Below are positions 1-10,504 of a stretch of 10,504 bases of DNA, piece by piece. The stretch is from the IMG/VR virus record IMGVR_UViG_2541047882_000009, positions 1-10,504 of that record; one strand, given 5' to 3'. Origin of the DNA: a virus (Duplodnaviria; Heunggongvirae; Uroviricota; Caudoviricetes). The notes under the pieces were generated by a model that made no database searches, had not been told where the DNA came from, and saw only the letters and a list, made by a program, of their open reading frames with translations. A program made the position numbers and the translations under genes. How positions within the stretch are numbered: position 1 is the first letter of the stretch; each line of letters begins with the position of its first letter.

Positions 1-580
1 TTAATTTATTGAATTTAAACGATAAATATCGCCACAAATAACGTTAAAAATCGCAAATTGACTACACCATTAACTACACCGTTCGGTGCACTGTATGCAA
101 CAACGTGGAACAAATAGACACAAGCGATATACAGGAAGGGACGATTTTTCTATGCAGATTTGCATAGTTCTAAATGAAGCTGGTGGATGATCACGGATAA
201 CCCGTTATGGGGATCACCATATCGACATCACGCCCACCAGCGAGATTAGTTACCTGGTTGCTGATGGGGGGCTGACGAACCTCGATGTCAGGATGCACAA
301 AACTAGTGAGACCTTTTTTCTCTGCAACAGGCCCATAATTCGCGTTTTCTTTGTCTGCCGTAAGGTGGGGGATTTTGGGCGGATCCAGCAATGGCGCGGA
401 TTTTGTTATTTTTTATAGATAGACCTCACCTATCAATCACATGCACATCTTCCCAAAAAAAGTTTTCGAACTTGCGGCGATGTGAACAAGGGTAGGCGGG
501 CGGTCCCATAAGCAATGGGGCGTAGGGATTTCGATCCCCCCGGGGGTATTAAACACCCCCCTATTTAAATACCGTCTTTT

Positions 581-630
581 TTGTCACTGTGTGTCACTGG
601 TTGTCACTCTCCGTCACGGTATGTCACCAT
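581..630. repeat. Five tandem 10-bp direct repeats with GTCAC core (tTGTCACTnn)
   Basis: Seen in sequence: ttgtcactgt, gtgtcactgg, ttgtcactct, ccgtcacggt, atgtcaccat, contiguous at exact 10-bp phasing. One additional TTGTCACTCA copy lies at 1181-1190. Confidence 0.7.
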
Positions 631-633
631 AAG

Positions 634-918
634 TTAACGTCGTAACCGCTCCGGCTTCTTCCAGTGGTAAGTAATTTTTTCTTTCTCCTGGTACATCTGC
701 ACGCGGCGACGGTATGACAACATCTCCAGAACTCTGGTGCGTATATTGCGCATATCCACGCCGTTAAGCTCAATACCGTCACGGCGCATCACCTCAGCCA
801 CCACACGCGCGTAATTTTCGGCTATCACGCTGTCCGGCTGCGTGGCCTCCTGTTTGCCTGCTGCCTGGTTGGCTCCGGTAACGCGGCGAATCATTTTGAG
901 CATTTCGGCTTCGGTCAT
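634..918 (-). CDS. Hypothetical protein, 94 aa (six-frame ORF extends to 948)
   Basis: Seen in sequence: the preferred start is the ATG at 918, with a GGAGG SD 8 nt upstream; the earlier in-frame ATGs at 948 and 924 have no or poorly spaced SDs. No family recognised. An array of GTCAC repeats lies immediately 3-prime. Confidence 0.5.
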   Translation of the reverse strand: MTEAEMLKMIRRVTGANQAAGKQEATQPDSVIAENYARVVAEVMRRDGIELNGVDMRNIRTRVLEMLSYRRRVQMYQEKEKITYHWKKPERLRR

Positions 919-962: not shown

Positions 963-1165
963 CGGGTCCTTCCTGGAAAATGAAACACCGGGGGTAGCCA
1001 TACGCGCAATTCTTAACTGTTTATGAAAATTTTTCGGGAAAAGTCAGATCCGTTCTTCTTCTCTGTAACTCATTGTTTAATGGTAAAATCATCAAAAAAA
1101 GAAAGGATCTGACAGTGGTCATTTTGGGCCAAAAATGACGTTATCAGATCCTTTCTCAGTTTTGT
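963..1165 (+). other. Second lambda-type cos region in inverted orientation, with different R-site motifs and no cognate terS downstream on its strand
   Basis: Seen in sequence: the plus-strand reading has TACGCGCAATTCTTAACTGTTTATGAAAATTTTTC (1001-1035, identical to the inverted copy at 1914-1948), then CAGATCCGTTCTTCTTC (lambda R3 GGCGTTTCCGTTCTTCTTCG), an AT-rich IHF-like segment, GAAAGGATCTGACAG (lambda R2 GAAAGGAAACGACAG) and TATCAGATCCTTTCTC (lambda R1 CTGTCGTTTCCTTTCTC). The R2/R1 dyad (1101-1112 and 1145-1156) with flanking A and T runs could also act as the terS terminator. Confidence 0.55.
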
Positions 1166-1183
1166 TCAATAATTGCGCGGTTG

Positions 1184-1768
1184 TCACTCACCTTTCTGTT
1201 GCCGTAATTTCTCCGGCACGTTTCCGGTTGTTTCCATCAGGTAGTCTTTCAGAATGCGGGGCAGGTTATCGGCAGTTTTAGCGCACGCATTACAGGCGCG
1301 TGCTGTTTCTTTCCTCAGGCCCTCGATCATTGCCGGAGTCATCGCGGGGAACTGCCTTTGCATTGTGAGCGGTAAACTATCCATGATCGAAGAAATCTGG
1401 CGCGCCAGACCACGAAGCGCATAGAGAACGAACTCAGTATCTGTAACTTCCCCCGCCTCTCTGGCGTTCTTCAGTTCCTGCCCGTCCGCCTGTGCTTTGG
1501 TGAGACGGTAGCGTTCGTACTCTGTTGTGCCTGGCTGTAAATCTGATTCACCAGCAGCACGTAAATCATCAAGCTCCCTGCGGAGTTTTTCGTTTTCGAT
1601 GTCCTTCTCCCTCTGTGCATACCATTCGATCACCTGTGCAGAGTCGAAAGTCACTTCCACACCTTTACCCCCACCAGATACATGGGGAAGCCCTTGCGTT
1701 TGCCATCGTTCAATCGTGCGCGGATCGACGCCAAAAATCTTCGCAAGATTATTTTTATTAACATTCAT
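1184..1768 (-). CDS. terS: Terminase small subunit, lambda Nu1 family, 194 aa
   Basis: Seen in sequence compared with recalled lambda Nu1: [103 protein letters not shown] aligns almost colinearly with [109 protein letters not shown] SD 10 nt upstream. The recognition-helix region differs from lambda. Confidence 0.9.
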   Translation of the reverse strand: [194 protein letters not shown]

Positions 1769-1985
1769 CTATCAATTCCTTATCAAAAACCAGTTCCGAC
1801 ATGAAACGCCAAAAAAACAGGATTTTTGGGCTTTATGATGTCGTATGTTTCTGGTGGTTGATTTTAATAAAAACAAACAGTTATGCGCGAGAAGTACCGA
1901 CATGCTTTTTCCTGAAAAATTTTCATAAACAGTTAAGAATTGCGCGTACACGTACCCCCCGTGTTTCAGATTCTGGAAAGGACCC
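1769..1985 (-). other. Lambda-type cos region (cosN-proximal segment plus cosB with R3-I1-R2-R1 layout) immediately upstream of terS
   Basis: Seen in sequence compared with the recalled lambda left end: the minus-strand reading contains CTGTTTATGAAAATTTTTCAGG (lambda CTATTTATGAAAATTTTCCGG), then CATAACTGTTTGTTTTTATTAAAATCAACC (lambda CATAACTTAATGTTTTTATTTAAAATACC, the IHF I1 region), flanked by three repeats: CATGTCGGTAC (about 1891-1905), inverted ATGTCGTATG (about 1836-1848) and CATGTCGGAAC (about 1790-1804). These occupy the positions of lambda R3, R2 (inverted) and R1, and the terS ATG follows as Nu1 does in lambda. The exact nick positions cannot be assigned. Confidence 0.6.
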
Positions 1986-2011: not shown

Positions 2012-2042
2012 TCCGGACACAAAAAAATCGCGAGGCCTTGCC
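2012..2042 (-). terminator. Rho-independent terminator ending the head operon
   Basis: Seen in sequence: stem CGCGAGG / CCTCGCG (2020-2026 and 2036-2042) with a 9-nt loop; on the minus strand it is followed by a T run (complement of the A run at 2012-2018). It sits about 25 nt after the 141-aa gene stop. Confidence 0.55.
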
Positions 2043-2065
2043 AACCTCGCGAACGTTCATTTCAG

Positions 2066-2491
2066 TTACTTAACAGACAGCAACAGCTTTTCATCTTCGG
2101 TCAGTCCGGCGTTACCATCACCGGCTGCTGGCCCAACACATTTCGGGCTGTGCTTTTCCATGTACGCATCAAACAAAAAAGCCGTTTTCTTTTCCTGCAT
2201 CATTGCCTGGGCATCCACGGCAGCCAGTAACGTTTGTGCATAGGTTACTGTCATTACTTCAGAACCACACTCAATCAGCTTACTGGTGAATTCAGGGTAT
2301 TTTGATGCCAGCGGTAACGCCTTGATACCCTCTATGCGCTGTTTATCACTCTCAGCCTTTGCAGTAAGTACCGTTCGGGCTTCTGTCAGTGATGCGCCAT
2401 TATTTGCGAGATTTTCCGCAAGCGTCGGGTATTTCTGCGCCTCAGGCAGTGCCATGATCAATGCTCTGGTTGAATTTGCTTTCTCAGTCAT
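2066..2491 (-). CDS. Hypothetical protein, 141 aa, with an internal duplicated motif; last gene of the head operon
   Basis: Seen in sequence: GGTGA SD 4 nt upstream and a 14-nt gap after the gpD-like stop. An internal repeat is present: ALPEAQKYPTLAENL and ALPLASKYPEFTSKL. No family recognised; no convincing similarity to lambda FI, FII or W. Confidence 0.55.
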   Translation of the reverse strand: MTEKANSTRALIMALPEAQKYPTLAENLANNGASLTEARTVLTAKAESDKQRIEGIKALPLASKYPEFTSKLIECGSEVMTVTYAQTLLAAVDAQAMMQEKKTAFLFDAYMEKHSPKCVGPAAGDGNAGLTEDEKLLLSVK

Positions 2492-2505
2492 AAATCACCA
2501 CAAAA

Positions 2506-2835
2506 TTATTGCCCTAAAGGCTGCACGGAAATACCGGAACCAACAAAAGCCGACACTTTTTTCTCGAACGTGTCCGCTGTATCAGGCCAGTTAATTTCAT
2601 CGATATTAAAAACCCCGCACTTATAAACCTGTGCGCGGTTTTTTGTGGCCGTGTTAATGTCCGATATGGTCAGATACACCGCCTTACCGGGTGTACCGTC
2701 CCACTCAACCATCAGGCCCGCGCCGTTCTGCATCAGCGGAGTTCTCGCTTTAATTTCTCCGGCACTGGCAAAACAGGCCAGCGTGCTGACCAGTTCCTGC
2801 GTGCCGGAAAGGAATTGCGTGTAAGGTGTTGGCAT
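2506..2835 (-). CDS. Head decoration protein, lambda gpD family, 109 aa
   Basis: Seen in sequence compared with the recalled lambda gpD sequence: TPLM, WDGT, YKCGVF (lambda YKSGTF), WPD/WPE and AFVGSGISV (AFAGTAISIV), at the same length (109 versus 110 aa). It lies immediately downstream of the capsid gene with a good SD. Confidence 0.8.
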   Translation of the reverse strand: MPTPYTQFLSGTQELVSTLACFASAGEIKARTPLMQNGAGLMVEWDGTPGKAVYLTISDINTATKNRAQVYKCGVFNIDEINWPDTADTFEKKVSAFVGSGISVQPLGQ

Positions 2836-2845
2836 ACGATCCCCT

Positions 2846-3901
2846 TTATTTCACTTCGACGGTAACAAAGCGACCAATATCCACGGGTACTGGCTGCGGG
2901 GCGCTGTGCGTCTGCACGTATTCAATCGCCGGATCGCCAGGTACGATATAATTTTTCGGGTAGTACATCCCCTCAGAAAACCCCTCGCGTGCCGCGTCCT
3001 GATCCATGATGGCACCATAAGCAACAAGGCCTTTATTTTCGGTATTGCCGAAAACCATCATGTTTTGTTTCAGGAAATATTGCTGCTGCCCGCATTCGTC
3101 GTCATAACGACCGGAATAAACCACGAGCGCCACATCACCGAGATACCCCTTGAAGCTGACAACGCCGCCCAAATCTTTTAGCGCAAGTTCAAGTGACGAG
3201 TTTGAACCGCGACGCGTGTCCAGGAGTTCGCGGAATCGACGGAACGAGCGCAAAATACGCCAGGCTTCGCCACCCATGACGATAATATTTACCGTACCTT
3301 TGGAAAAATCAGCGTAAGCCTCAATGTCGCTTATCGGATCAAACGTCTCGGCATCCTGTTTTGACCATTCTTTCCCGCCAGCCTGTGTAATGTGATTGGT
3401 TGCGGGTAATCCCCAGTCAATTTCATAACGCTCAATGCCTTCGCCTTCGATAACGTTACGGCCTGTTGTGATGGCATTGACCGCCAGCCATTCAACACGC
3501 GCTTTGATGGCAGCAAGCTGTTTTTTCTGGCTGTCGTGAACCATTTTTACGCGGCGTAGTGCCGGGGAAGACTGACCATTGCCGATCTGTTCTCCAGCCA
3601 TGCGCATGATTGTTTTAGTGGGATCAATAACGTGTTTGGGCTTCATATAACCCGGCGTGAAAGTGTTCGTTGTAAAACCTTTGTCACGCATAACCTGACT
3701 GCCTGACATTGGTGAACAAAACGGACTCATGACCACGTTTTCAATATCCAGCGTATCAAGCGCAATATCTCGCGTACTGAACGTGGCGATATTCGGAAAA
3801 AACAGCGTCGTAAAGAGCGGATTAAATTTAAATTCCGGCACATCTTCTCGCCCGATATTTTTCAGTAGCGTTGGTGTGCTTACCAGTTGTGGCGCTGTCA
3901 T
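2846..3901 (-). CDS. Major capsid protein, lambda gpE family, 351 aa
   Basis: Seen in sequence compared with the recalled lambda gpE sequence: shared blocks FKFNPLF, FTPGYMKPKH (lambda FTPGYVKPKH), ITQAGGKEWSK (ITQSGGTEWSK), DPISDIEAYA (DPTDDIEAYA), VNIIV, DTRRGSNSSLE (DTRRGSNSELE), KGYLGDVALVVYSGRY (KGMYGDVAIVVYSGQY), YPKN, GDPA and SAP, at near-identical length (351 versus 341 aa). Confidence 0.9.
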   Translation of the reverse strand: MTAPQLVSTPTLLKNIGREDVPEFKFNPLFTTLFFPNIATFSTRDIALDTLDIENVVMSPFCSPMSGSQVMRDKGFTTNTFTPGYMKPKHVIDPTKTIMRMAGEQIGNGQSSPALRRVKMVHDSQKKQLAAIKARVEWLAVNAITTGRNVIEGEGIERYEIDWGLPATNHITQAGGKEWSKQDAETFDPISDIEAYADFSKGTVNIIVMGGEAWRILRSFRRFRELLDTRRGSNSSLELALKDLGGVVSFKGYLGDVALVVYSGRYDDECGQQQYFLKQNMMVFGNTENKGLVAYGAIMDQDAAREGFSEGMYYPKNYIVPGDPAIEYVQTHSAPQPVPVDIGRFVTVEVK

Positions 3902-4366: not shown

Positions 4367-4789
4367 TTAAAACGGTATGTTATCCCCGTACGGATCATCA
4401 TTTCCCGCCTGTTGTTTTGCCCTGTTCAGTGCGTCAGTAGCCTGGCCCTGCTGGCCTTTTTTGCCGCCCGGTCGCGCCGTCCGCGCACTGATTACGCTGT
4501 CTGCGATAACCTGCCAGCCCTGCCGCGTTTCGCCGTTCTGGCCTGTCCACTGGCTTACCTGCATGTTACCCGCCACGCTCACCAGTTCGCCTTTGTGGTG
4601 CTTTGCCAGTGCGTCGGCCTGTCTGCCAAACGCCATGACGGATAACCACATCGTCGCCGTTCCGTCATCTGCCTGGCTGCACGGCAGGGGAACCGCCATA
4701 CTCGCCATCGCCATTTGTGTCCCCTTGCTGGTGGTCTTTAACTGCGGGTCAGCCACCAGCCGCCCGTAAGCCGCTATCTGTGCTGTCAT
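4367..4789 (-). CDS. ssb: Single-stranded DNA-binding protein (short SSB), 140 aa
   Basis: Seen in sequence: OB-fold-like N-terminus (IAAYGRLVADPQLKTTSKG..., WLSVMAFGRQADALAKHHKGELVSVAGNMQVSQWTGQNGETRQ), a Gly/Gln-rich linker and an acidic tail ending DDPYGDNIPF. Established knowledge: this parallels E. coli SSB, including the C-terminal D-D-D-I-P-F protein-interaction tail. Confidence 0.85.
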   Translation of the reverse strand: MTAQIAAYGRLVADPQLKTTSKGTQMAMASMAVPLPCSQADDGTATMWLSVMAFGRQADALAKHHKGELVSVAGNMQVSQWTGQNGETRQGWQVIADSVISARTARPGGKKGQQGQATDALNRAKQQAGNDDPYGDNIPF

Positions 4790-5040: not shown

Positions 5041-5249
5041 CCCACCTGTGCCCACTTTTTCTACCCACTTTTCATGGTTTCCCACTTCGTCCCACCTGGG
5101 ATTTTGTGGTTTTATATCGTACTGTTTCATAAGAGTTTTTTTAGTGCCCACTTTTTGGGATGTATACACGTGGGAAAGTGGGCGATTTTGTTAAATTCCA
5201 GTTAAATTACCCACTATTCCCACTTTTAACGCCCACTTTTTACAGTGGG
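5041..5249. repeat. Iteron array, about 9 direct and 3 inverted copies of CCCACTTTT-like motif; candidate replication origin
   Basis: Seen in sequence: CCCAC(C/T)T copies starting at about 5041, 5051, 5064, 5081, 5091, 5147, 5210, 5219 and 5232, and inverted GTGGG copies at about 5170, 5178 and 5245. Inference: placement directly downstream of the rep gene stop matches the usual ori position in PICI/SaPI-type elements. Confidence 0.6.
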
Positions 5250-6646
5250 TGAACATCATCCCCATCGACGCAAATCACGCCGTCTTTTTCCAGTTTGGCT
5301 AACCATCGTTTAAGGTGTTTTGTGTCATATCCCAGCTTTTTCATGTCATCACGTAGCAGCGGGATCGTACATTTATCACCATGCTGTATACGCGACCGGA
5401 TACAACCCCATAAAGCCGTGTGATTTTCCGTCTTGTTCCCGGCCTCCTCTATGCGCTCCAGTTCAGCAGGGGCGCGGGGAACGTCAATCACCACCATGGA
5501 CACAATCTCTTCGCCATCTGTATCGGTGAACACCTCCACGCTTTTAAGATCGTATGCACTCTCTTTTGGCTCCTCTGCGTCCTTCATCTTCGTACACGCC
5601 GCCACCAGTGCTGTAACCTCTGAATTTTCCCGGCTGATTCGGTACTCTGCATCAAGCGCGGCACGGAATGCGCTGGAACCGCGCGCCCCCTTTGTTTCAT
5701 CCTTGCCGGAATGGTGAACCACCAGCACCGTGGCCCCTGTGGCCTGCTTTATCGCGTCACACCCCTGGATAAATGCGCCCATATCGCGGGAATCATTTTC
5801 ATCATTCCCACCAAAGCAACGGGCCAGCGTGTCGATCACAATCAGCCGCACATTTTCGCCCGTTCTGCTCTTAACAAGTCCGGCAGTCCTGATAACCTGC
5901 TCCACATAGTCAGGCGATGCGGGGAAGACAGGCGCGTTAACGATGCACAAATCTGTAACCACCTTGTCATGGGTTATCTCCCACGCCTTAACGCGGCGTT
6001 TTACGCCCATACTGCCTTCGCCAGCGATATAGATAACAGCGCCCTTACTTACCCTGCGGCCTCCCCATGCCATACCTGTGGCAACATGGCACGACCAGGA
6101 AATAGCCAGGAACGATTTATAAGAACCGCTGGCCCCGTAGGTGCTGCATAATGACTCAGCCGGAATAAGCCCCTTAATTACGTAGCTTTGCTGCGCGTCG
6201 AATCCCTCAGAACCCCATGAGATGGGAAGTGTGATTTTTCGCTTTCCACCATTCATGACCAGACTTTCCCCGCGTTCCCAGGTTTCTTTAAGCCGCGGTA
6301 GTTGCTCGCTCCAGTCCTCCAGCAGTTCGAAATTCTCTGAAAGTAACCGTGCTTCCTGGACACCTGCGATCGCCAGTTTGGTGGCAATGGTCAGCATCTG
6401 CATATCGTCCAGGTTTCCGGCGCGTATGACCTTTGCTCTGTATCGTCCTTCATCAACAATCTGTAAATTGTCCAGTTCGCTTAACTGATAACGGCCCAGG
6501 TAAACCGGAGGGATGGGATCGCCTGCTTTTTTGGCCTGTGCAATCATGTAATGTTCTGCAAAGGAGTGAGCATTATCACCCGCAAAAATAACCGCCTCAG
6601 TGTGTTTATCTTTCGGTAACAGTTTTACGTTCGGTGCCAGTTTCAT
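5240..6646 (-). CDS. Replication initiator/helicase-type ATPase, RepA-like (AAA_25 RecA-fold core), 468 aa, with a C-terminal winged-helix-like tail
   Basis: Seen in sequence: Walker A-like GASGSYKS, Walker B-like RLIVIDTL followed by VLVVHHSGKDETKG, in the arrangement LIPAESLCSTYGASGSYKSFLAISW...AVIYIAGEGS typical of AAA_25/RepA-like proteins. Established knowledge: such proteins act as replication initiators or helicases in PICIs, plasmids and integrative elements. The N-terminal 150 aa is unassigned and has no obvious primase motifs. An iteron array lies immediately 3-prime. Confidence 0.8.
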   Translation of the reverse strand: MKLAPNVKLLPKDKHTEAVIFAGDNAHSFAEHYMIAQAKKAGDPIPPVYLGRYQLSELDNLQIVDEGRYRAKVIRAGNLDDMQMLTIATKLAIAGVQEARLLSENFELLEDWSEQLPRLKETWERGESLVMNGGKRKITLPISWGSEGFDAQQSYVIKGLIPAESLCSTYGASGSYKSFLAISWSCHVATGMAWGGRRVSKGAVIYIAGEGSMGVKRRVKAWEITHDKVVTDLCIVNAPVFPASPDYVEQVIRTAGLVKSRTGENVRLIVIDTLARCFGGNDENDSRDMGAFIQGCDAIKQATGATVLVVHHSGKDETKGARGSSAFRAALDAEYRISRENSEVTALVAACTKMKDAEEPKESAYDLKSVEVFTDTDGEEIVSMVVIDVPRAPAELERIEEAGNKTENHTALWGCIRSRIQHGDKCTIPLLRDDMKKLGYDTKHLKRWLAKLEKDGVICVDGDDVHPL

Positions 6647-8732: not shown

Positions 8733-8936
8733 TTAGTGAACTGCCTCGCGGCTGTCCTTCCATGCCAGAACTTCGGATAAAGACCAGCCAACGGAACGAC
8801 CGCCGAGTTTACGCCGTGATGGGAATTGTCCGGTTTTTTCCAGGCGGTACCGACATGAGCGGCTCAGGCCTGTAAGTTGCTGACATTCTTTTTCACGTAT
8901 AAAGCGATCAGTGCTTAACACTATTGCCTCCGTCAT
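8733..8936 (-). CDS. alpA: AlpA-family (excisionase-like, MerR-type HTH) DNA-binding regulator, 67 aa
   Basis: Seen in sequence: 67-aa ORF downstream of int on the same strand. Established knowledge: the size and the motif ...QQLTGLSRSCRYRLEKTGQFPSRRKLGGRSVGWSLSEVLAWK... are typical of AlpA/Vis-like regulators of P4-like prophages and Gram-negative PICIs. An int then alpA order is the canonical layout. Confidence 0.8.
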   Translation of the reverse strand: MTEAIVLSTDRFIREKECQQLTGLSRSCRYRLEKTGQFPSRRKLGGRSVGWSLSEVLAWKDSREAVH

Positions 8937-9274: not shown

Positions 9275-10504
9275 TTATATTTCTCTGGCTATTGGCAGTG
9301 TGGTTACGTTTTCGTGAGCACCTGCCAGTATCTCTAATCGCTCTGTCCACATATCCAGCGCGTTACGTTTCGCATCAATATAGCGGGAGTGGTTATAGAC
9401 TCGTTGCATCCCTGGCATCTGGTGGGCGGTAAGTTGCTCGACAATATGCGGATCCACGCCTAAATCGTTCAGCATCGTGGTAAACGTGCGCCGTATATCG
9501 TGCAGGGACCAGTGAGGATGGTTTAATTTTTTGTGCGTAAATCTGCCGTATTGTGACACGCTGGCTTCCTGTTTCAGTTCTCCGAGTAATAACCCTGTGT
9601 GCCTGTTCTGCTCCACCAGCTGCGTGACGAACGGCAAAATGCTTTCCGGTATTGGCCTGAATATGGCGACCTTCGTTTTGCTGTGTTCTTTCGGTACCGT
9701 CCAGAGCATTTCCTTAAAATCCCACTCCCTGATCTCCGACAGCCTCAGTTCTCCGGTCCGGCAGCCGAACACAATCAGGAGGCGGATTAGTGCGCTGTAG
9801 TAGGGCGGGAATATTTTTTTATCCAGCGCCTGTAATAATTCGCCCAGTTCTTTGTTACTAAGCACGCGTTCGCTTATGCCCGGCTTTTTGCCAACGTCCA
9901 GCACGTTGAGATCATCCAGAACGTTACTGACTGCGTAGCGACGTTTACGGCAGAACTTAAGCGCCTGTTTGCACGCCTGCATCATGTGGCCAGATGTTAC
10001 GGGTGATTTTTTGCGTATCCGGTCAAAACAGGCCAGCCAGTGACGCAACTCGCATTTATCCAGCGGCATATTGCCAATATGCTGTATGACGTGATTATTC
10101 AGGCGGCTTTTCAGGGAGACGTAATCGACACGGTTTTCCTTTACGTGCATTTCCAGCCAGTAGCTGATCGCATCGCCTACCGTTACCGGCTTTAGTGCTT
10201 CCTGTATGGAGTAATTAAGCTCATGGCGTGGATTTTTTCCCTCTGCCAGCCATGCGCGACACTGTGCTGCTTTTTCCCTGGCTGCTTTCAGGCTCAGATC
10301 CGGATAATTTCCCAGCTTCAGGCGTTCCGGTGATACCTGGCGTCCTGTTCCTGCCCTGTAGGTGAAATACCAGGTTAACAGACCGCTGGTGGAGTGTCTG
10401 ATACTCAGATTTCCACCGTCATTAAGAAAGGTGGTTTTTTGGGCTGGTGTGCCGTTGATTTTTCTTAGCTGCGTGTCGCTCAGTTTGTTAAGTGCCCTGC
10501 TCAT
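9275..10504 (-). CDS. int: Tyrosine site-specific integrase, P4-type, 409 aa
   Basis: Seen in sequence: 409-aa ORF whose ATG is the last three bases of the window. Established knowledge: the N-terminal arm-binding-like segment (LSDTQLRK...FLNDGGNLSIR...WYFTYR...LKLGNYPDLSLKAAREKA) and the C-terminal catalytic region with HxxR and a terminal Tyr context (HDIRRTF...HQMPGMQRVYNHSRY) match the P4 integrase family layout. The promoter and any att site or tRNA would lie beyond the window. Confidence 0.9.
   Translation of the reverse strand: MSRALNKLSDTQLRKINGTPAQKTTFLNDGGNLSIRHSTSGLLTWYFTYRAGTGRQVSPERLKLGNYPDLSLKAAREKAAQCRAWLAEGKNPRHELNYSIQEALKPVTVGDAISYWLEMHVKENRVDYVSLKSRLNNHVIQHIGNMPLDKCELRHWLACFDRIRKKSPVTSGHMMQACKQALKFCRKRRYAVSNVLDDLNVLDVGKKPGISERVLSNKELGELLQALDKKIFPPYYSALIRLLIVFGCRTGELRLSEIREWDFKEMLWTVPKEHSKTKVAIFRPIPESILPFVTQLVEQNRHTGLLLGELKQEASVSQYGRFTHKKLNHPHWSLHDIRRTFTTMLNDLGVDPHIVEQLTAHQMPGMQRVYNHSRYIDAKRNALDMWTERLEILAGAHENVTTLPIAREI

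What the first reader, a model, noticed from the sequence alone, without database searches (positions are those of the whole stretch)
963..1985. Two lambda-type cos regions in inverted orientation bracket the terS gene and carry different cosB repeat motifs
The two copies share a 35-bp identical core (1001-1035 and 1914-1948, inverted) inside an inverted repeat of about 80 bp, and each is followed by a lambda-like R3-I1-R2-R1 arrangement. The copy adjacent to terS uses (C)ATGTCGGnAC repeats, while the opposite copy uses CAGATCC(G/T)TTCT repeats, which are closer to lambda CGTTTCC(G/T)TTCT. The second copy points away from any terS. One reading is that the element keeps one cos for its own TerS and a second for direct recognition by a helper Nu1-type TerS, which would give two packaging directions or broaden helper range. 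Alternatively the second copy is a decoy that titrates helper terminase, or the inverted repeats support inversion or exchange of the terS-cosB cassette. I know of no described satellite or phage with this dual-cos layout.
Basis: partly seen in the sequence, partly recalled or inferred. Interest (0 to 1): 0.9.

Follow-up and report, generated by a model that had tools for sequence, protein, structure and literature searches.

The report
Phage satellite's invertible dual-cos packaging cassette
This is the DNA-packaging module of an E. coli phage satellite: a small-terminase gene flanked by two complete cos sites that face each other, one matching the satellite's own protein and one copied from a different class of phages. 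The layout was already published for a sister satellite, but its purpose was left unexplained.

Summary
Positions 964-1985 hold two convergent, complete lambda-type cos sites (cosQ, cosN, I2 core, R3-I1-R2-R1) around a Nu1-family terS gene.

The layout is not new. The window is a PICI of the EcCICFT073 family. That family's cos1 and cos2 sites are published and shown to be functional, and I found them in the same convergent arrangement around rppA.

Three things are new here:
- **Both cosB regions belong to real phage specificity classes.** The terS-proximal cosB is phage-21 class (ATGTCGG) and matches the satellite TerS recognition helix. The distal cosB is Gifsy-1 class (CAGATCC). It matches E. 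coli prophages whose TerS carries a different helix on a 98% identical TerL.
- **The cosB-terS-cosB cassette is inverted in nature.** The crossover lies in the 35-bp identical core. Strain U90 carries two copies that are 100% identical over the three regions compared (3.1 kb) but lie in opposite orientations.
- **The cassette is exchangeable.** Near-identical flanks hold an rppC-like gene instead of terS.

Best reading: one cos serves the satellite's own TerS and the other serves helper TerS. The convergent orientation stops packaging from terminating at the wrong site. Function is inferred, not tested.

Verdict: a new variant of a known kind, of moderate interest.

The parts
634..918 (-). Conserved 94-aa gene of unknown function (phrog_1561), the outer left neighbour of the module. 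Its EcCICFT073 counterpart follows cos2.
964..970 (+). cosQ of the left (distal) cos, GGGTCCT
   Evidence: alignment with lambda and 21 cos
991..1004 (+). cosN of the left cos. The predicted 12-nt overhang is GGTAGCCATACG, placed by homology and spacing only (about ±2 nt). It stays with the flank when the cassette inverts.
1001..1035 (+). Left copy of the 35-bp identical core (right half of cosN, the I2 position and the TTTATGAAAATTTT block). This is the crossover zone of the natural inversions.
1045..1056 (+). R3 of the left cosB, Gifsy-1 class (CAGATCCGTTCT)
1066..1078 (-). I1, an IHF-consensus match (1 mismatch) between R3 and R2 of the left cos
1100..1111 (-). R2 of the left cosB, inverted (CAGATCCTTTCT)
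1145..1156 (+). R1 of the left cosB (CAGATCCTTTCT), 28 nt from the terS stop codon
1184..1768 (-). terS, a 194-aa Nu1/gp1-family small terminase. It has a 21-class recognition helix ([11 protein letters not shown]) and a divergent C-terminal half with a 12-aa tail.
   Evidence: Pfam PF07471 at 4e-68; PDB 6hn7_B; alignment
1770..1782 (+). Perfect IHF-consensus match at the terS start, in the position of phage 21's I0 site
1793..1803 (-). R1 of the right cosB, phage-21 class (CATGTCGGAAC)
1837..1847 (+). R2 of the right cosB, inverted and degenerate (GATGTCGTATG)
1871..1883 (+). I1, an IHF-consensus match (1 mismatch), in the right cos
1894..1904 (-). R3 of the right cosB (CATGTCGGTAC)
1914..1948 (-). 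Right copy of the 35-bp identical core
1945..1958 (-). cosN of the right cos. The predicted overhang is GGTACGTGTACG, with the same centre as the cosN of phage contig L020.
1979..1985 (-). cosQ of the right cos (GGGTCCT on the minus strand)
2028..2052 (-). Terminator-like hairpin plus T-run between the scaffold-like gene and the right cos. It lies outside the invertible unit.
   Evidence: a consensus match only
2066..3901 (-). Upstream neighbours on the minus strand: a scaffold-like 141-aa gene, a gpD-like decoration gene and a gpE-like major capsid gene, as in EcCICFT073 c1499 and c1500.

Best explanation
Positions 964-1985 are the packaging module of an EcCICFT073-family PICI in which a full-length TerS takes the place of Rpp. 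Two complete cos sites face each other across terS.

**Shown by sequence comparison**
- The terS-proximal cos (right) carries phage-21-class R boxes, which match the DNA-recognition helix of the satellite's own TerS.
- The distal cos (left) carries Gifsy-1-class R boxes. These are identical to those of E. coli lambdoid prophages whose TerS has the other helix (ECDVRTITGWQ).
- The cosQ and cosN of those prophages are of the same family as the satellite's.
- Their TerL is 98% identical to the TerL of sister phages that use 21-class boxes.

**Inferred mechanism**
- Satellite TerS plus helper TerL starts packaging at the right cos, going leftward.
- Helper TerS of the Gifsy-1 class plus the same TerL starts packaging at the left cos, going rightward.
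- The element can therefore be packaged by helpers of either specificity class.
- Termination needs cosQ upstream of cosN. A packaging run therefore ignores the oppositely oriented site and ends only at the next copy of the site it started from, giving full-length genomes with matching ends.
- In direct orientation the two sites would yield terS-deleted genomes or genomes with mismatched ends.

**Side effect: inversion**
The two sites share a 35-bp identical core, and recombination within it inverts the cosB-terS-cosB cassette while cosQ and cosN stay with the flanks. Both complete cos sites are regenerated. I judge the inversion tolerated or neutral rather than programmed.
For: - **Anatomy.**
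- **Covariation of R box and TerS helix.** It holds across lambda, 21, Gifsy-1, eight IMG/VR phage contigs and the PICI. R boxes are invariant while spacers diverge.
- **The Gifsy-1-class cosB is a real phage site.** It occurs in 59 IMG/VR contigs. The phage contigs examined have it directly upstream of terS.
- **Shared TerL.** L016 (21 class) and L020/L026 (Gifsy-1 class) have 98% identical TerL.
- **The layout is conserved.** Every one of 26 related satellites has it. The left-junction arrangement is found in 135 of 5,426 complete E. coli genomes.
- **Published experiments on EcCICFT073.** Both cos sites mobilise plasmids. Only the double deletion abolishes transfer. cos1 is the Rpp-dependent site.
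- **The cos2 sites of sister PICIs also copy real phage cosB classes.** One class uses ATGTCCGGTT boxes and the other GGTTGTTGT boxes. Both lie upstream of terS and terL in phage contigs.
- **Co-residence.** IMG genome 2802429224 holds both a PICI of this type (L009) and a Gifsy-1-class phage contig (L024/L087).
- **Inversion.**
Against: - No experiment exists for this element. Binding, cutting and packaging direction are all inferred.
- In EcCICFT073, deleting cos2 increased transfer by lambda and phi80. A second cos therefore has a cost with non-cognate helpers, and its benefit has never been shown.
- If both sites in one unit are cut, a run from one site would stop after about 1 kb.
- R2 of the right cos is degenerate.
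- The C-terminal (TerL-binding) half of the satellite TerS differs from that of the 21-class and Gifsy-1-class phages found here, so its partner TerL is unknown.
- How terS is transcribed in the inverted state is unresolved. There is a terminator-like hairpin upstream, and the scan found no convincing promoter.
- The idea that orientation insulates the two sites rests on lambda knowledge (the cosQ requirement and polar packaging), not on a test here.
Confidence: 0.6

Rival explanations
1. The distal cos is mainly an interference device. It acts as a decoy that binds and consumes helper TerS and TerL (or provokes abortive cuts), lowering helper packaging rather than serving satellite transfer.
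For: - Its cosB is an exact copy of the helper-class R boxes.
- PICIs of this family do interfere with helper packaging.
- Deleting cos2 in EcCICFT073 raised rather than lowered transfer with lambda and phi80.
Against: - It is a complete cos with cosQ and cosN, not just R boxes, so binding should lead to cutting and packaging.
- Cloned EcCICFT073 cos2 mobilises a plasmid, and residual transfer after the cos1 deletion disappears only when cos2 is also deleted.
- One or a few extra sites per satellite copy is a weak sink.
Confidence: 0.12
2. The cassette is a programmed genetic switch. Inversion toggles terS expression and re-pairs each cosB with the other cosQ/cosN half and its different cohesive end. 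This switches the satellite between packaging with its own TerS and packaging with helper TerS.
For: - Both orientations are common: about 10 versus 15 among the listed E. coli genomes.
- At least two independent events occurred. The U90 state-B copy is identical to state-A copies, while the TUM1881 copy differs by 8 substitutions.
- U90 holds both states with no substitutions over the three regions compared, about 3.1 kb.
- The two arms share a satellite-specific core variant (AATTCTTAAC) that the phages lack, which suggests ongoing exchange between the arms.
- A terminator-like hairpin isolates the cassette from the capsid operon.
Against: - No invertase gene is present. The only recombinase is the integrase.
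- The crossover lies in a block that is conserved for packaging reasons in all lambdoid cos sites.
- The L048-type satellites sampled, 11 of 11, are in a single orientation.
- Both states retain two complete cos sites, so nothing obvious is switched.
- Promoter evidence is absent.
Confidence: 0.1
3. The second cos has no packaging role today. It is kept because paired cos-homology arms act as landing pads for swapping the packaging-specificity cassette (terS or rpp with its cosB) among satellites and phages, or it is simply a remnant of such swaps.
For: - ETEC1732 has flanks about 99.5% identical to the window but carries an rppC-like gene in place of terS.
- The cosQ/cosN halves are mosaic among relatives.
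- Derivatives with terS deleted keep both sites.
Against: - The three R boxes and the I1 site of the distal cos are invariant between the satellite and distant phages, while the spacers have diverged. That pattern indicates selection on TerS and IHF binding.
- Homology arms would not need cosB at all.
- The layout is conserved in all 26 satellites checked.
- EcCICFT073 cos2 works as a cos site.
Confidence: 0.1

Closest known systems
EcCICFT073 cos1-rppA-cos2 module (Fillol-Salom et al. 2018, PMC6092414; 2019, PMC6739421)
   Same: - It belongs to the same PICI family: int, alpA, replication genes, SSB, gpE-like capsid, gpD-like decoration, the packaging module and the 94-aa gene.
- It has the same convergent pair of cos sites around the specificity gene, as verified in the CFT073 genome.
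- Both of its sites were experimentally shown to function.
   Different: - The specificity gene here is a full-length Nu1-family TerS, not Rpp.
- The proximal cos has a classical 21-class R3-I1-R2-R1, whereas EcCICFT073 cos1 has no R repeats.
- cosN is of the ACGCGC family with a variable centre, not lambda's GGGCGGCGACCT.
- The papers left the purpose of two sites open, and their main texts hold no match for 'inverted' or 'orientation' and none for 'opposite' about cos. A text search for 'inversion' found no occurrence in the PICI packaging papers.
cos sites of lambda, phage 21 and Gifsy-1 (Becker and Murialdo; Feiss; reviewed in PMC9026076)
   Same: The order cosQ-cosN-I2-R3-I1-R2-R1 and its spacing are the same, R2 is inverted, and the R boxes covary with the TerS recognition helix.
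   Different: - Phages carry one cos, followed by terS and terL.
- Here there are two in opposite orientation, only one is followed by terS, and no terL is encoded.
cos-type SaPIs (SaPIbov5; SaPIbov4 with two putative cos sites) and P4
   Same: These satellites are packaged because they carry a helper-type cos. SaPIbov4 is cited as also having two putative cos sites.
   Different: - They have unrelated sequences and unrelated helpers.
- They have no cognate satellite TerS next to one of the sites.
- I did not examine the arrangement in SaPIbov4.
Invertible DNA switches (Hin/Gin/Cin segments, fim switch, shufflons)
   Same: A segment bounded by inverted repeats is found in both orientations in natural isolates.
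   Different: - No dedicated invertase is present here.
- The repeats are functional cos sequences.
- The crossover lies in a 35-bp homology block, which fits general or phage-encoded homologous recombination.

Membership tests
Gram-negative cos PICI of the EcCICFT073 type | Integrase at one end, an AlpA regulator, and a replication module, with genes mostly unidirectional in an element of about 10-15 kb | tested here: met
   - Integrase (PF00589 plus an arm-binding domain) at 9275-10504.
- AlpA (PF05930, 3e-18) at 8733-8936.
- RepA-type AAA_25 helicase at 5240-6646.
- SSB at 4367-4789.
- All lie on the minus strand.
Gram-negative cos PICI of the EcCICFT073 type | gpE-like capsid and gpD-like decoration genes followed by a packaging-specificity gene flanked by cos1 and cos2 | tested here: met
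   Phage_cap_E at 2e-46 and HDPD at 9e-8. The gene order and the convergent cos pair match the CFT073 locus L094.
Gram-negative cos PICI of the EcCICFT073 type | Rpp protein that redirects helper TerS | tested here: not met
   The gene is a 194-aa Nu1-family TerS (PF07471), not Rpp. A sibling element (L033) with about 99.5% identical flanks does carry an RppC homologue (PDB 6hlk, 1.5e-33). Fillol-Salom 2018 notes that some PICIs carry terS instead.
Gram-negative cos PICI of the EcCICFT073 type | Induction, packaging and transfer by a helper phage, and interference with that helper | not testable with these tools
   Needs experiments.
Lambda-type cos site (each of the two copies) | cosQ about 30 bp upstream of cosN, a conserved I2/TTTATGAAAATTTT block, then R3-I1-R2(inverted)-R1 in register with lambda and 21 | tested here: met
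   Alignments without gaps through R3. R boxes occur 3 times versus 0.00 expected. IHF matches lie at the I1 positions. R2 of the right copy is degenerate.
Lambda-type cos site (each of the two copies) | Staggered nicking 12 nt apart by TerL, giving cohesive ends | not testable with these tools
   Nick positions are placed by homology only.
Lambda-type cos site (each of the two copies) | A cognate TerS whose recognition helix matches the R-box class | tested here: met
   - Right copy: the satellite TerS helix [10 protein letters not shown] is the same as in 21-class phages.
- Left copy: no cognate TerS is encoded in the window, but phages with the ECDVRTITGWQ or GCDVRTVTAWQ helix carry the same boxes.
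Site-specific invertible switch | A dedicated invertase (serine or tyrosine recombinase) adjacent to or within the segment | tested here: not met
   The cassette encodes only terS. The only recombinase in the window is the integrase, 7.5 kb away.
Site-specific invertible switch | Both orientations present in nature, with breakpoints inside the inverted repeats | tested here: met
   - The TUM1881 and U90-2 copies are inverted, with the crossover in the 35-bp core.
- Four of 12 sampled satellites are inverted.
- The two U90 copies are 100% identical apart from orientation.
Site-specific invertible switch | Mixed orientations within a clonal population, and a phenotype that differs between states | not testable with these tools
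   Needs long reads and locked mutants.

The most novel reading that the evidence does not exclude
- cos2 is always a faithful copy of the cos of a second helper specificity class. The classes seen are Gifsy-1, ATGTCCGGTT and GGTTGTTGT.
- It is placed in inverted orientation so that the two sites cannot cross-terminate.
- Recombination at the shared core, possibly stimulated by the cos cut and helper Red-type functions, actively flips and exchanges the cosB-terS/rpp cassette.
- Satellites would thereby re-tool their helper range quickly.
Probability: 0.3. Interest if true: 0.7.

Novelty: new variant of a known kind. Interest (0 to 1): 0.55.

Why it matters
Packaging specificity decides which phages can spread a satellite, and with it virulence and defence genes.

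The published EcCICFT073 work showed two working cos sites and explicitly left their purpose open. The comparison here turns that question into specific, cheap experiments. It shows that the second site copies the cos of a defined phage class with a matching TerS helix. It also suggests that convergent orientation insulates the two sites from each other.

The analysis also reveals a natural set of at least five R-box/TerS-helix classes on closely related terminases. That set is useful for studying DNA recognition and for engineering the packaging specificity of cosmid-like or PICI-based delivery particles.

The naturally invertible and swappable cassette shows how fast that specificity can be reshuffled.

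Tried and rejected
- **Inversion by terminase cutting both sites and re-annealing the flipped fragment: rejected as the simple explanation.** The two predicted overhangs differ at 4 of their 6 central bases. In the inverted relatives the cosN centre stays with the flank, so the crossover lies inside the core.
- **'Inversion occurs only where the arms share a long identical core': not strictly true.** State-B elements L003 and L010 now share only 16 identical bases between their arms. The L048-type satellites sampled, 11 of 11, were in one orientation.
- **Promoter scan for an orientation-independent terS promoter: inconclusive.** It found two weak consensus matches, no more than in shuffles, and one of them overlaps the start codon.
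- **Literature search for 'two cos sites', 'inverted cos' and 'dual cos': almost all noise.** The relevant papers came from the PICI/cosB search.
- **Full-length match of the whole window in complete E. coli genomes: none at 80% coverage or more.** The element is a mosaic.
- **tRNA scan of the window: nothing.**
- **An extra exact 21-class R box at 8847-8857.** It lies inside the alpA reading frame, so I treat it as coincidence.
- **No phage in the GenBank phage collection matched the left cos closely by BLAST.** The best hit was the SerU-LTIIb prophage fragment at 75%. The cognate phages were found only with an R-box pattern search of IMG/VR.
Full report

Yes. The repeat finder reports an inverted repeat with arms 955-1078 and 1871-1994, 124 nt long and 77% complementary.

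CAGATCCKTTCT occurs at 1045-1056(+), 1100-1111(-) and 1145-1156(+), against 0.00 expected in 200 shuffles. CATGTCGGWAC occurs exactly at 1894-1904(-) and 1793-1803(-). The middle box of that copy (1837-1847) is degenerate.

IHF-consensus matches sit between R3 and R2 of both copies, at 1066-1078 and 1871-1883. A perfect match sits at 1770-1782 next to the terS start, where phage 21 has its I0 site.

A four-way alignment with lambda cos and phage 21 cos shows all the elements in register in both copies: cosQ (GGGTCCT), a cosN-position segment, the I2/TTTATGAAAATTTT block and R3-I1-R2-R1.

The two sites are convergent. Each would package first through terS and then through the other site.

**2. 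What the element is**

All the genes lie on the minus strand:

| Gene | Coordinates | Evidence |
|---|---|---|
| Integrase | 9275-10504 | PF00589 |
| AlpA | 8733-8936 | PF05930 |
| RepA-type helicase | 5240-6646 | AAA_25 |
| SSB | 4367-4789 | PF00436 |
| gpE-like major capsid | 2846-3901 | Phage_cap_E |
| gpD-like decoration | 2506-2835 | HDPD |
| Scaffold-like 141-aa protein | 2066-2491 | phrog_53, C-terminal part |
| Nu1-family TerS | 1184-1768 | PF07471, 4e-68 |
| Conserved 94-aa protein | 634-918 | phrog_1561 |

This is the gene set and order of the PICI EcCICFT073. Its capsid (c1499) and decoration (c1500) genes and rppA (c1503) are described in Fillol-Salom et al. 2018 and 2019.

**3. 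The dual-cos layout is already described**

[quoted passage not shown] Each one mobilises a plasmid. cos1 is needed for lambda- and phi80-mediated transfer and is the RppA-dependent site. Deleting cos2 increases transfer, and only the double deletion abolishes it. [quoted passage not shown]'.

I fetched the CFT073 locus (L094). It has cos1 (+) upstream of rppA and cos2 in inverted orientation downstream of it, followed by the 94-aa gene. That is exactly the layout of the window.

All 26 related satellites I examined have a convergent cosQ pair 523-1023 bp apart. The left-junction arrangement (94-aa gene, inverted Gifsy-class cos, 3' end of a terS) covers at least 80% of the query in 135 of 5,426 complete E. 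coli genomes.

**4. What the two cosB regions are**

A pattern search of IMG/VR for the left R3...R2 arrangement found 59 contigs. Besides satellites these include contigs of 15-56 kb. The phage contigs examined have this cosB directly upstream of terS and terL. Gifsy-1 has the same boxes.

Aligning the TerS proteins shows strict covariation of R box and recognition helix:

| R box | TerS recognition helix | Found in |
|---|---|---|
| ATGTCGG | (N/G)[10 protein letters not shown] | phage 21, L015-L017, the satellite TerS |
| CAGATCC | ECDVRTITGWQ or GCDVRTVTAWQ | L018, L020, L022, L026, L029; Gifsy-1 |
| CGTTTCC | [11 protein letters not shown] | lambda |

L016/L017 and L018/L020 TerS are otherwise nearly identical, and their TerL proteins are 98% identical. 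The two classes are therefore alternative specificities on one terminase backbone.

Between the satellite and these phages the R boxes and I1 are invariant, while the spacers have diverged. That pattern argues for selection on binding.

The satellite's cosQ and cosN also belong to this phage family rather than to lambda's. The pattern is CCGGGGGT-NNNNNN-ACGCGC, and the right cosN centre equals that of L020.

The C-terminal half of the satellite TerS, which is the TerL-binding part in lambda, differs from both phage groups. It resembles that of L015 and of the ATGTCCGGTT-class phages. Its partner TerL is therefore uncertain.

**5. The same rule holds in sister PICIs**

EcCICFT073 cos2 has ATGTCCGGTT/AACCGGACAT repeats. 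The same arrangement occurs in at least 120 IMG/VR contigs. In three phage contigs I inspected (40-48 kb) it lies directly upstream of a GTG-start terS and a gpA-like terL.

The Rpp-type sibling ETEC1732 (L033) has GGTTGTTGT/ACAACAACC repeats in its cos2. Those lie upstream of a Nu1-family terS in many phage contigs.

In each case examined, cos2 is thus a copy of a genuine phage cos of a class other than cos1's. The 2019 paper reported that no phage cosB could be identified in EcCICFT073.

**6. Inversion and exchange**

In TUM1881 (L002) the cassette is inverted relative to all flanking genes. Diagnostic positions show that the flank, cosQ and cosN centre of one arm are now joined to the cosB of the other, so the crossover lies inside the identical core.

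Of 12 satellites with this terS, 8 are co-oriented and 4 are inverted. Among the listed E. coli genomes the ratio is about 10 to 15. The exact junction queries give 8 and 2 for the capsid-bearing lineage.

Strain U90 holds two copies, one at tRNA-Pro and one inside rclA. They have identical protein accessions. They are 100% identical over the cassette interior (878 bp), the right flank (1,908 bp) and the left flank (321 bp), yet they lie in opposite orientations.

The TUM1881 state-B cassette differs from the U90 cassette by 8 substitutions, while the U90 state-B copy is identical to state-A copies. At least two independent inversions therefore occurred. One caveat: an assembly error in U90 cannot be excluded from the sequence alone.

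There is no invertase. Homologous recombination at the core is the simplest mechanism. I suggest, without evidence, that the nearby cos cut and helper Red-type functions would favour it.

Exchange is also seen. ETEC1732 has flanks about 99.5% identical to the window but carries an rppC-like gene (PDB 6hlk, 1.5e-33) with its own pair of cos sites. L041 and L054 have lost terS but keep both sites.

**7. How it most likely works**

Shown by sequence comparison: there are two complete cos sites of different, real specificity classes, and one matches the satellite's own TerS.

Inferred:
- The satellite TerS with helper TerL uses the right cos.
- A Gifsy-1-class helper TerS uses the left cos.
- The element can therefore be packaged by helpers of either class.
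- Termination needs cosQ and cosN. Assuming from lambda biology that cosQ must be met before cosN, a run cannot terminate at the oppositely oriented site.
- It therefore ends at the next copy of its own site, giving full-length genomes with matching ends.
- Direct orientation would yield deleted genomes or genomes with mismatched ends.

The cost seen when cos2 is present with non-cognate helpers fits a bet-hedging design. A pure decoy, a programmed switch and a functionless recombination scaffold remain possible but are less well supported (see the rival explanations).

**8. Verdict**

It is a new variant of a known kind. The dual-cos module is known. The new points are:
- the TerS version with 21-class and Gifsy-1-class cosB;
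- the match of cos2 to phage classes;
- the natural inversion and exchange of the cassette.

Interest is moderate. It gives a concrete, testable answer to a question the field left open.

Noticed in passing
window 991-1004 and 1945-1958; loci L016-L034: In this phage and PICI family the cosN position reads GG(T/G/A)-NNNNNN-ACGCGC, and the central 6 bases are hypervariable. About 50 distinct cos sites gave 19 different versions. Lambda-type sites are almost all GGGCGGCGACCT (92 cases). Phages with 98% identical TerL carry different centres, so cohesive ends differ between close relatives and between the two cos sites of one satellite.
   Followed up: partly
L016/L017 versus L018/L020/L026 (IMG/VR phage contigs): This is a natural specificity swap. 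The TerS proteins are nearly identical except for the recognition helix ([11 protein letters not shown] versus ECDVRTITGWQ). The cosB boxes change in step (ATGTCGG versus CAGATCC), and TerL is 98% identical. At least five R-box classes exist among E. coli lambdoid phages: lambda, 21, Gifsy-1, ATGTCCGGTT and GGTTGTTGT.
   Followed up: partly
L094 (CFT073) 3100-3340, minus strand: EcCICFT073 cos2 has R-like repeats (ATGTCCGGTT, then AACCGGACAT twice). They are identical to the cosB of at least 120 IMG/VR contigs, including phage contigs of 40-48 kb with terS and terL downstream, although the 2019 paper reported finding no phage cosB in the element.
   Followed up: partly
L033 (ETEC1732) 9300-10200: This sibling satellite has flanks about 99.5% identical to the window. 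It carries a 146-aa RppC homologue in place of terS, with its own convergent pair of cos sites. The packaging cassette is therefore modular.
   Followed up: yes
L041 2427-2950; L054: In these derivatives terS is deleted, with its start fused to its last codons. Both cos sites are retained only about 520 bp apart.
   Followed up: partly
L048, L049, L084 and eight more IMG/VR loci; 127 E. coli genomes at 73-81% identity: This is a second satellite subgroup with a 175-aa TerS variant about 50% identical to the window's. In L048 and L084 the proximal cos has exact lambda cosQ/cosN and a different cosB, and L048's distal inverted cos is almost identical to the window's left copy. All 11 sampled are in one orientation.
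   Followed up: partly
L001 (SA53-3) 10600-21400: This copy of the satellite sits inside a prophage, between tail/baseplate genes and head genes. It resembles the 'helper-embedded satellites' described in bioRxiv 10.1101/2022.07.18.500453.
   Followed up: no
L096 (U90) 8650-19700: The second U90 copy is inserted in rclA, which is annotated as truncated. This is a different site from the tRNA-Pro site used by the first copy, although both copies have the same integrase protein accession.
   Followed up: no
window 575-630: A run of five (T)GTCAC(T/C) direct repeats spaced about 9-11 bp apart lies just beyond the 94-aa gene, near the presumed end of the element. They may be protein-binding sites, such as integrase arm sites or a replication or regulatory element.
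   Followed up: no
window 8847-8857 (-): An exact 21-class R box (CATGTCGGTAC) lies inside the alpA reading frame. About 0.01 would be expected by chance. It is probably coincidence, but a TerS-binding site there is not excluded.
   Followed up: partly
window 2066-2491 (-): The 141-aa protein after the decoration gene matches the C-terminal end of head maturation protease profiles (phrog_53, positions 500-577 of 583). That is the region corresponding to lambda's nested scaffold Nu3. The satellite thus encodes capsid, decoration and scaffold-like proteins but no portal, protease or TerL.
   Followed up: no
window 2028-2052 (-): A strong terminator-like hairpin (10 pairs, 6 of them GC, followed by a T-run) lies between the capsid operon and the right cos. 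How terS and the 94-aa gene are transcribed is therefore unclear.
   Followed up: no
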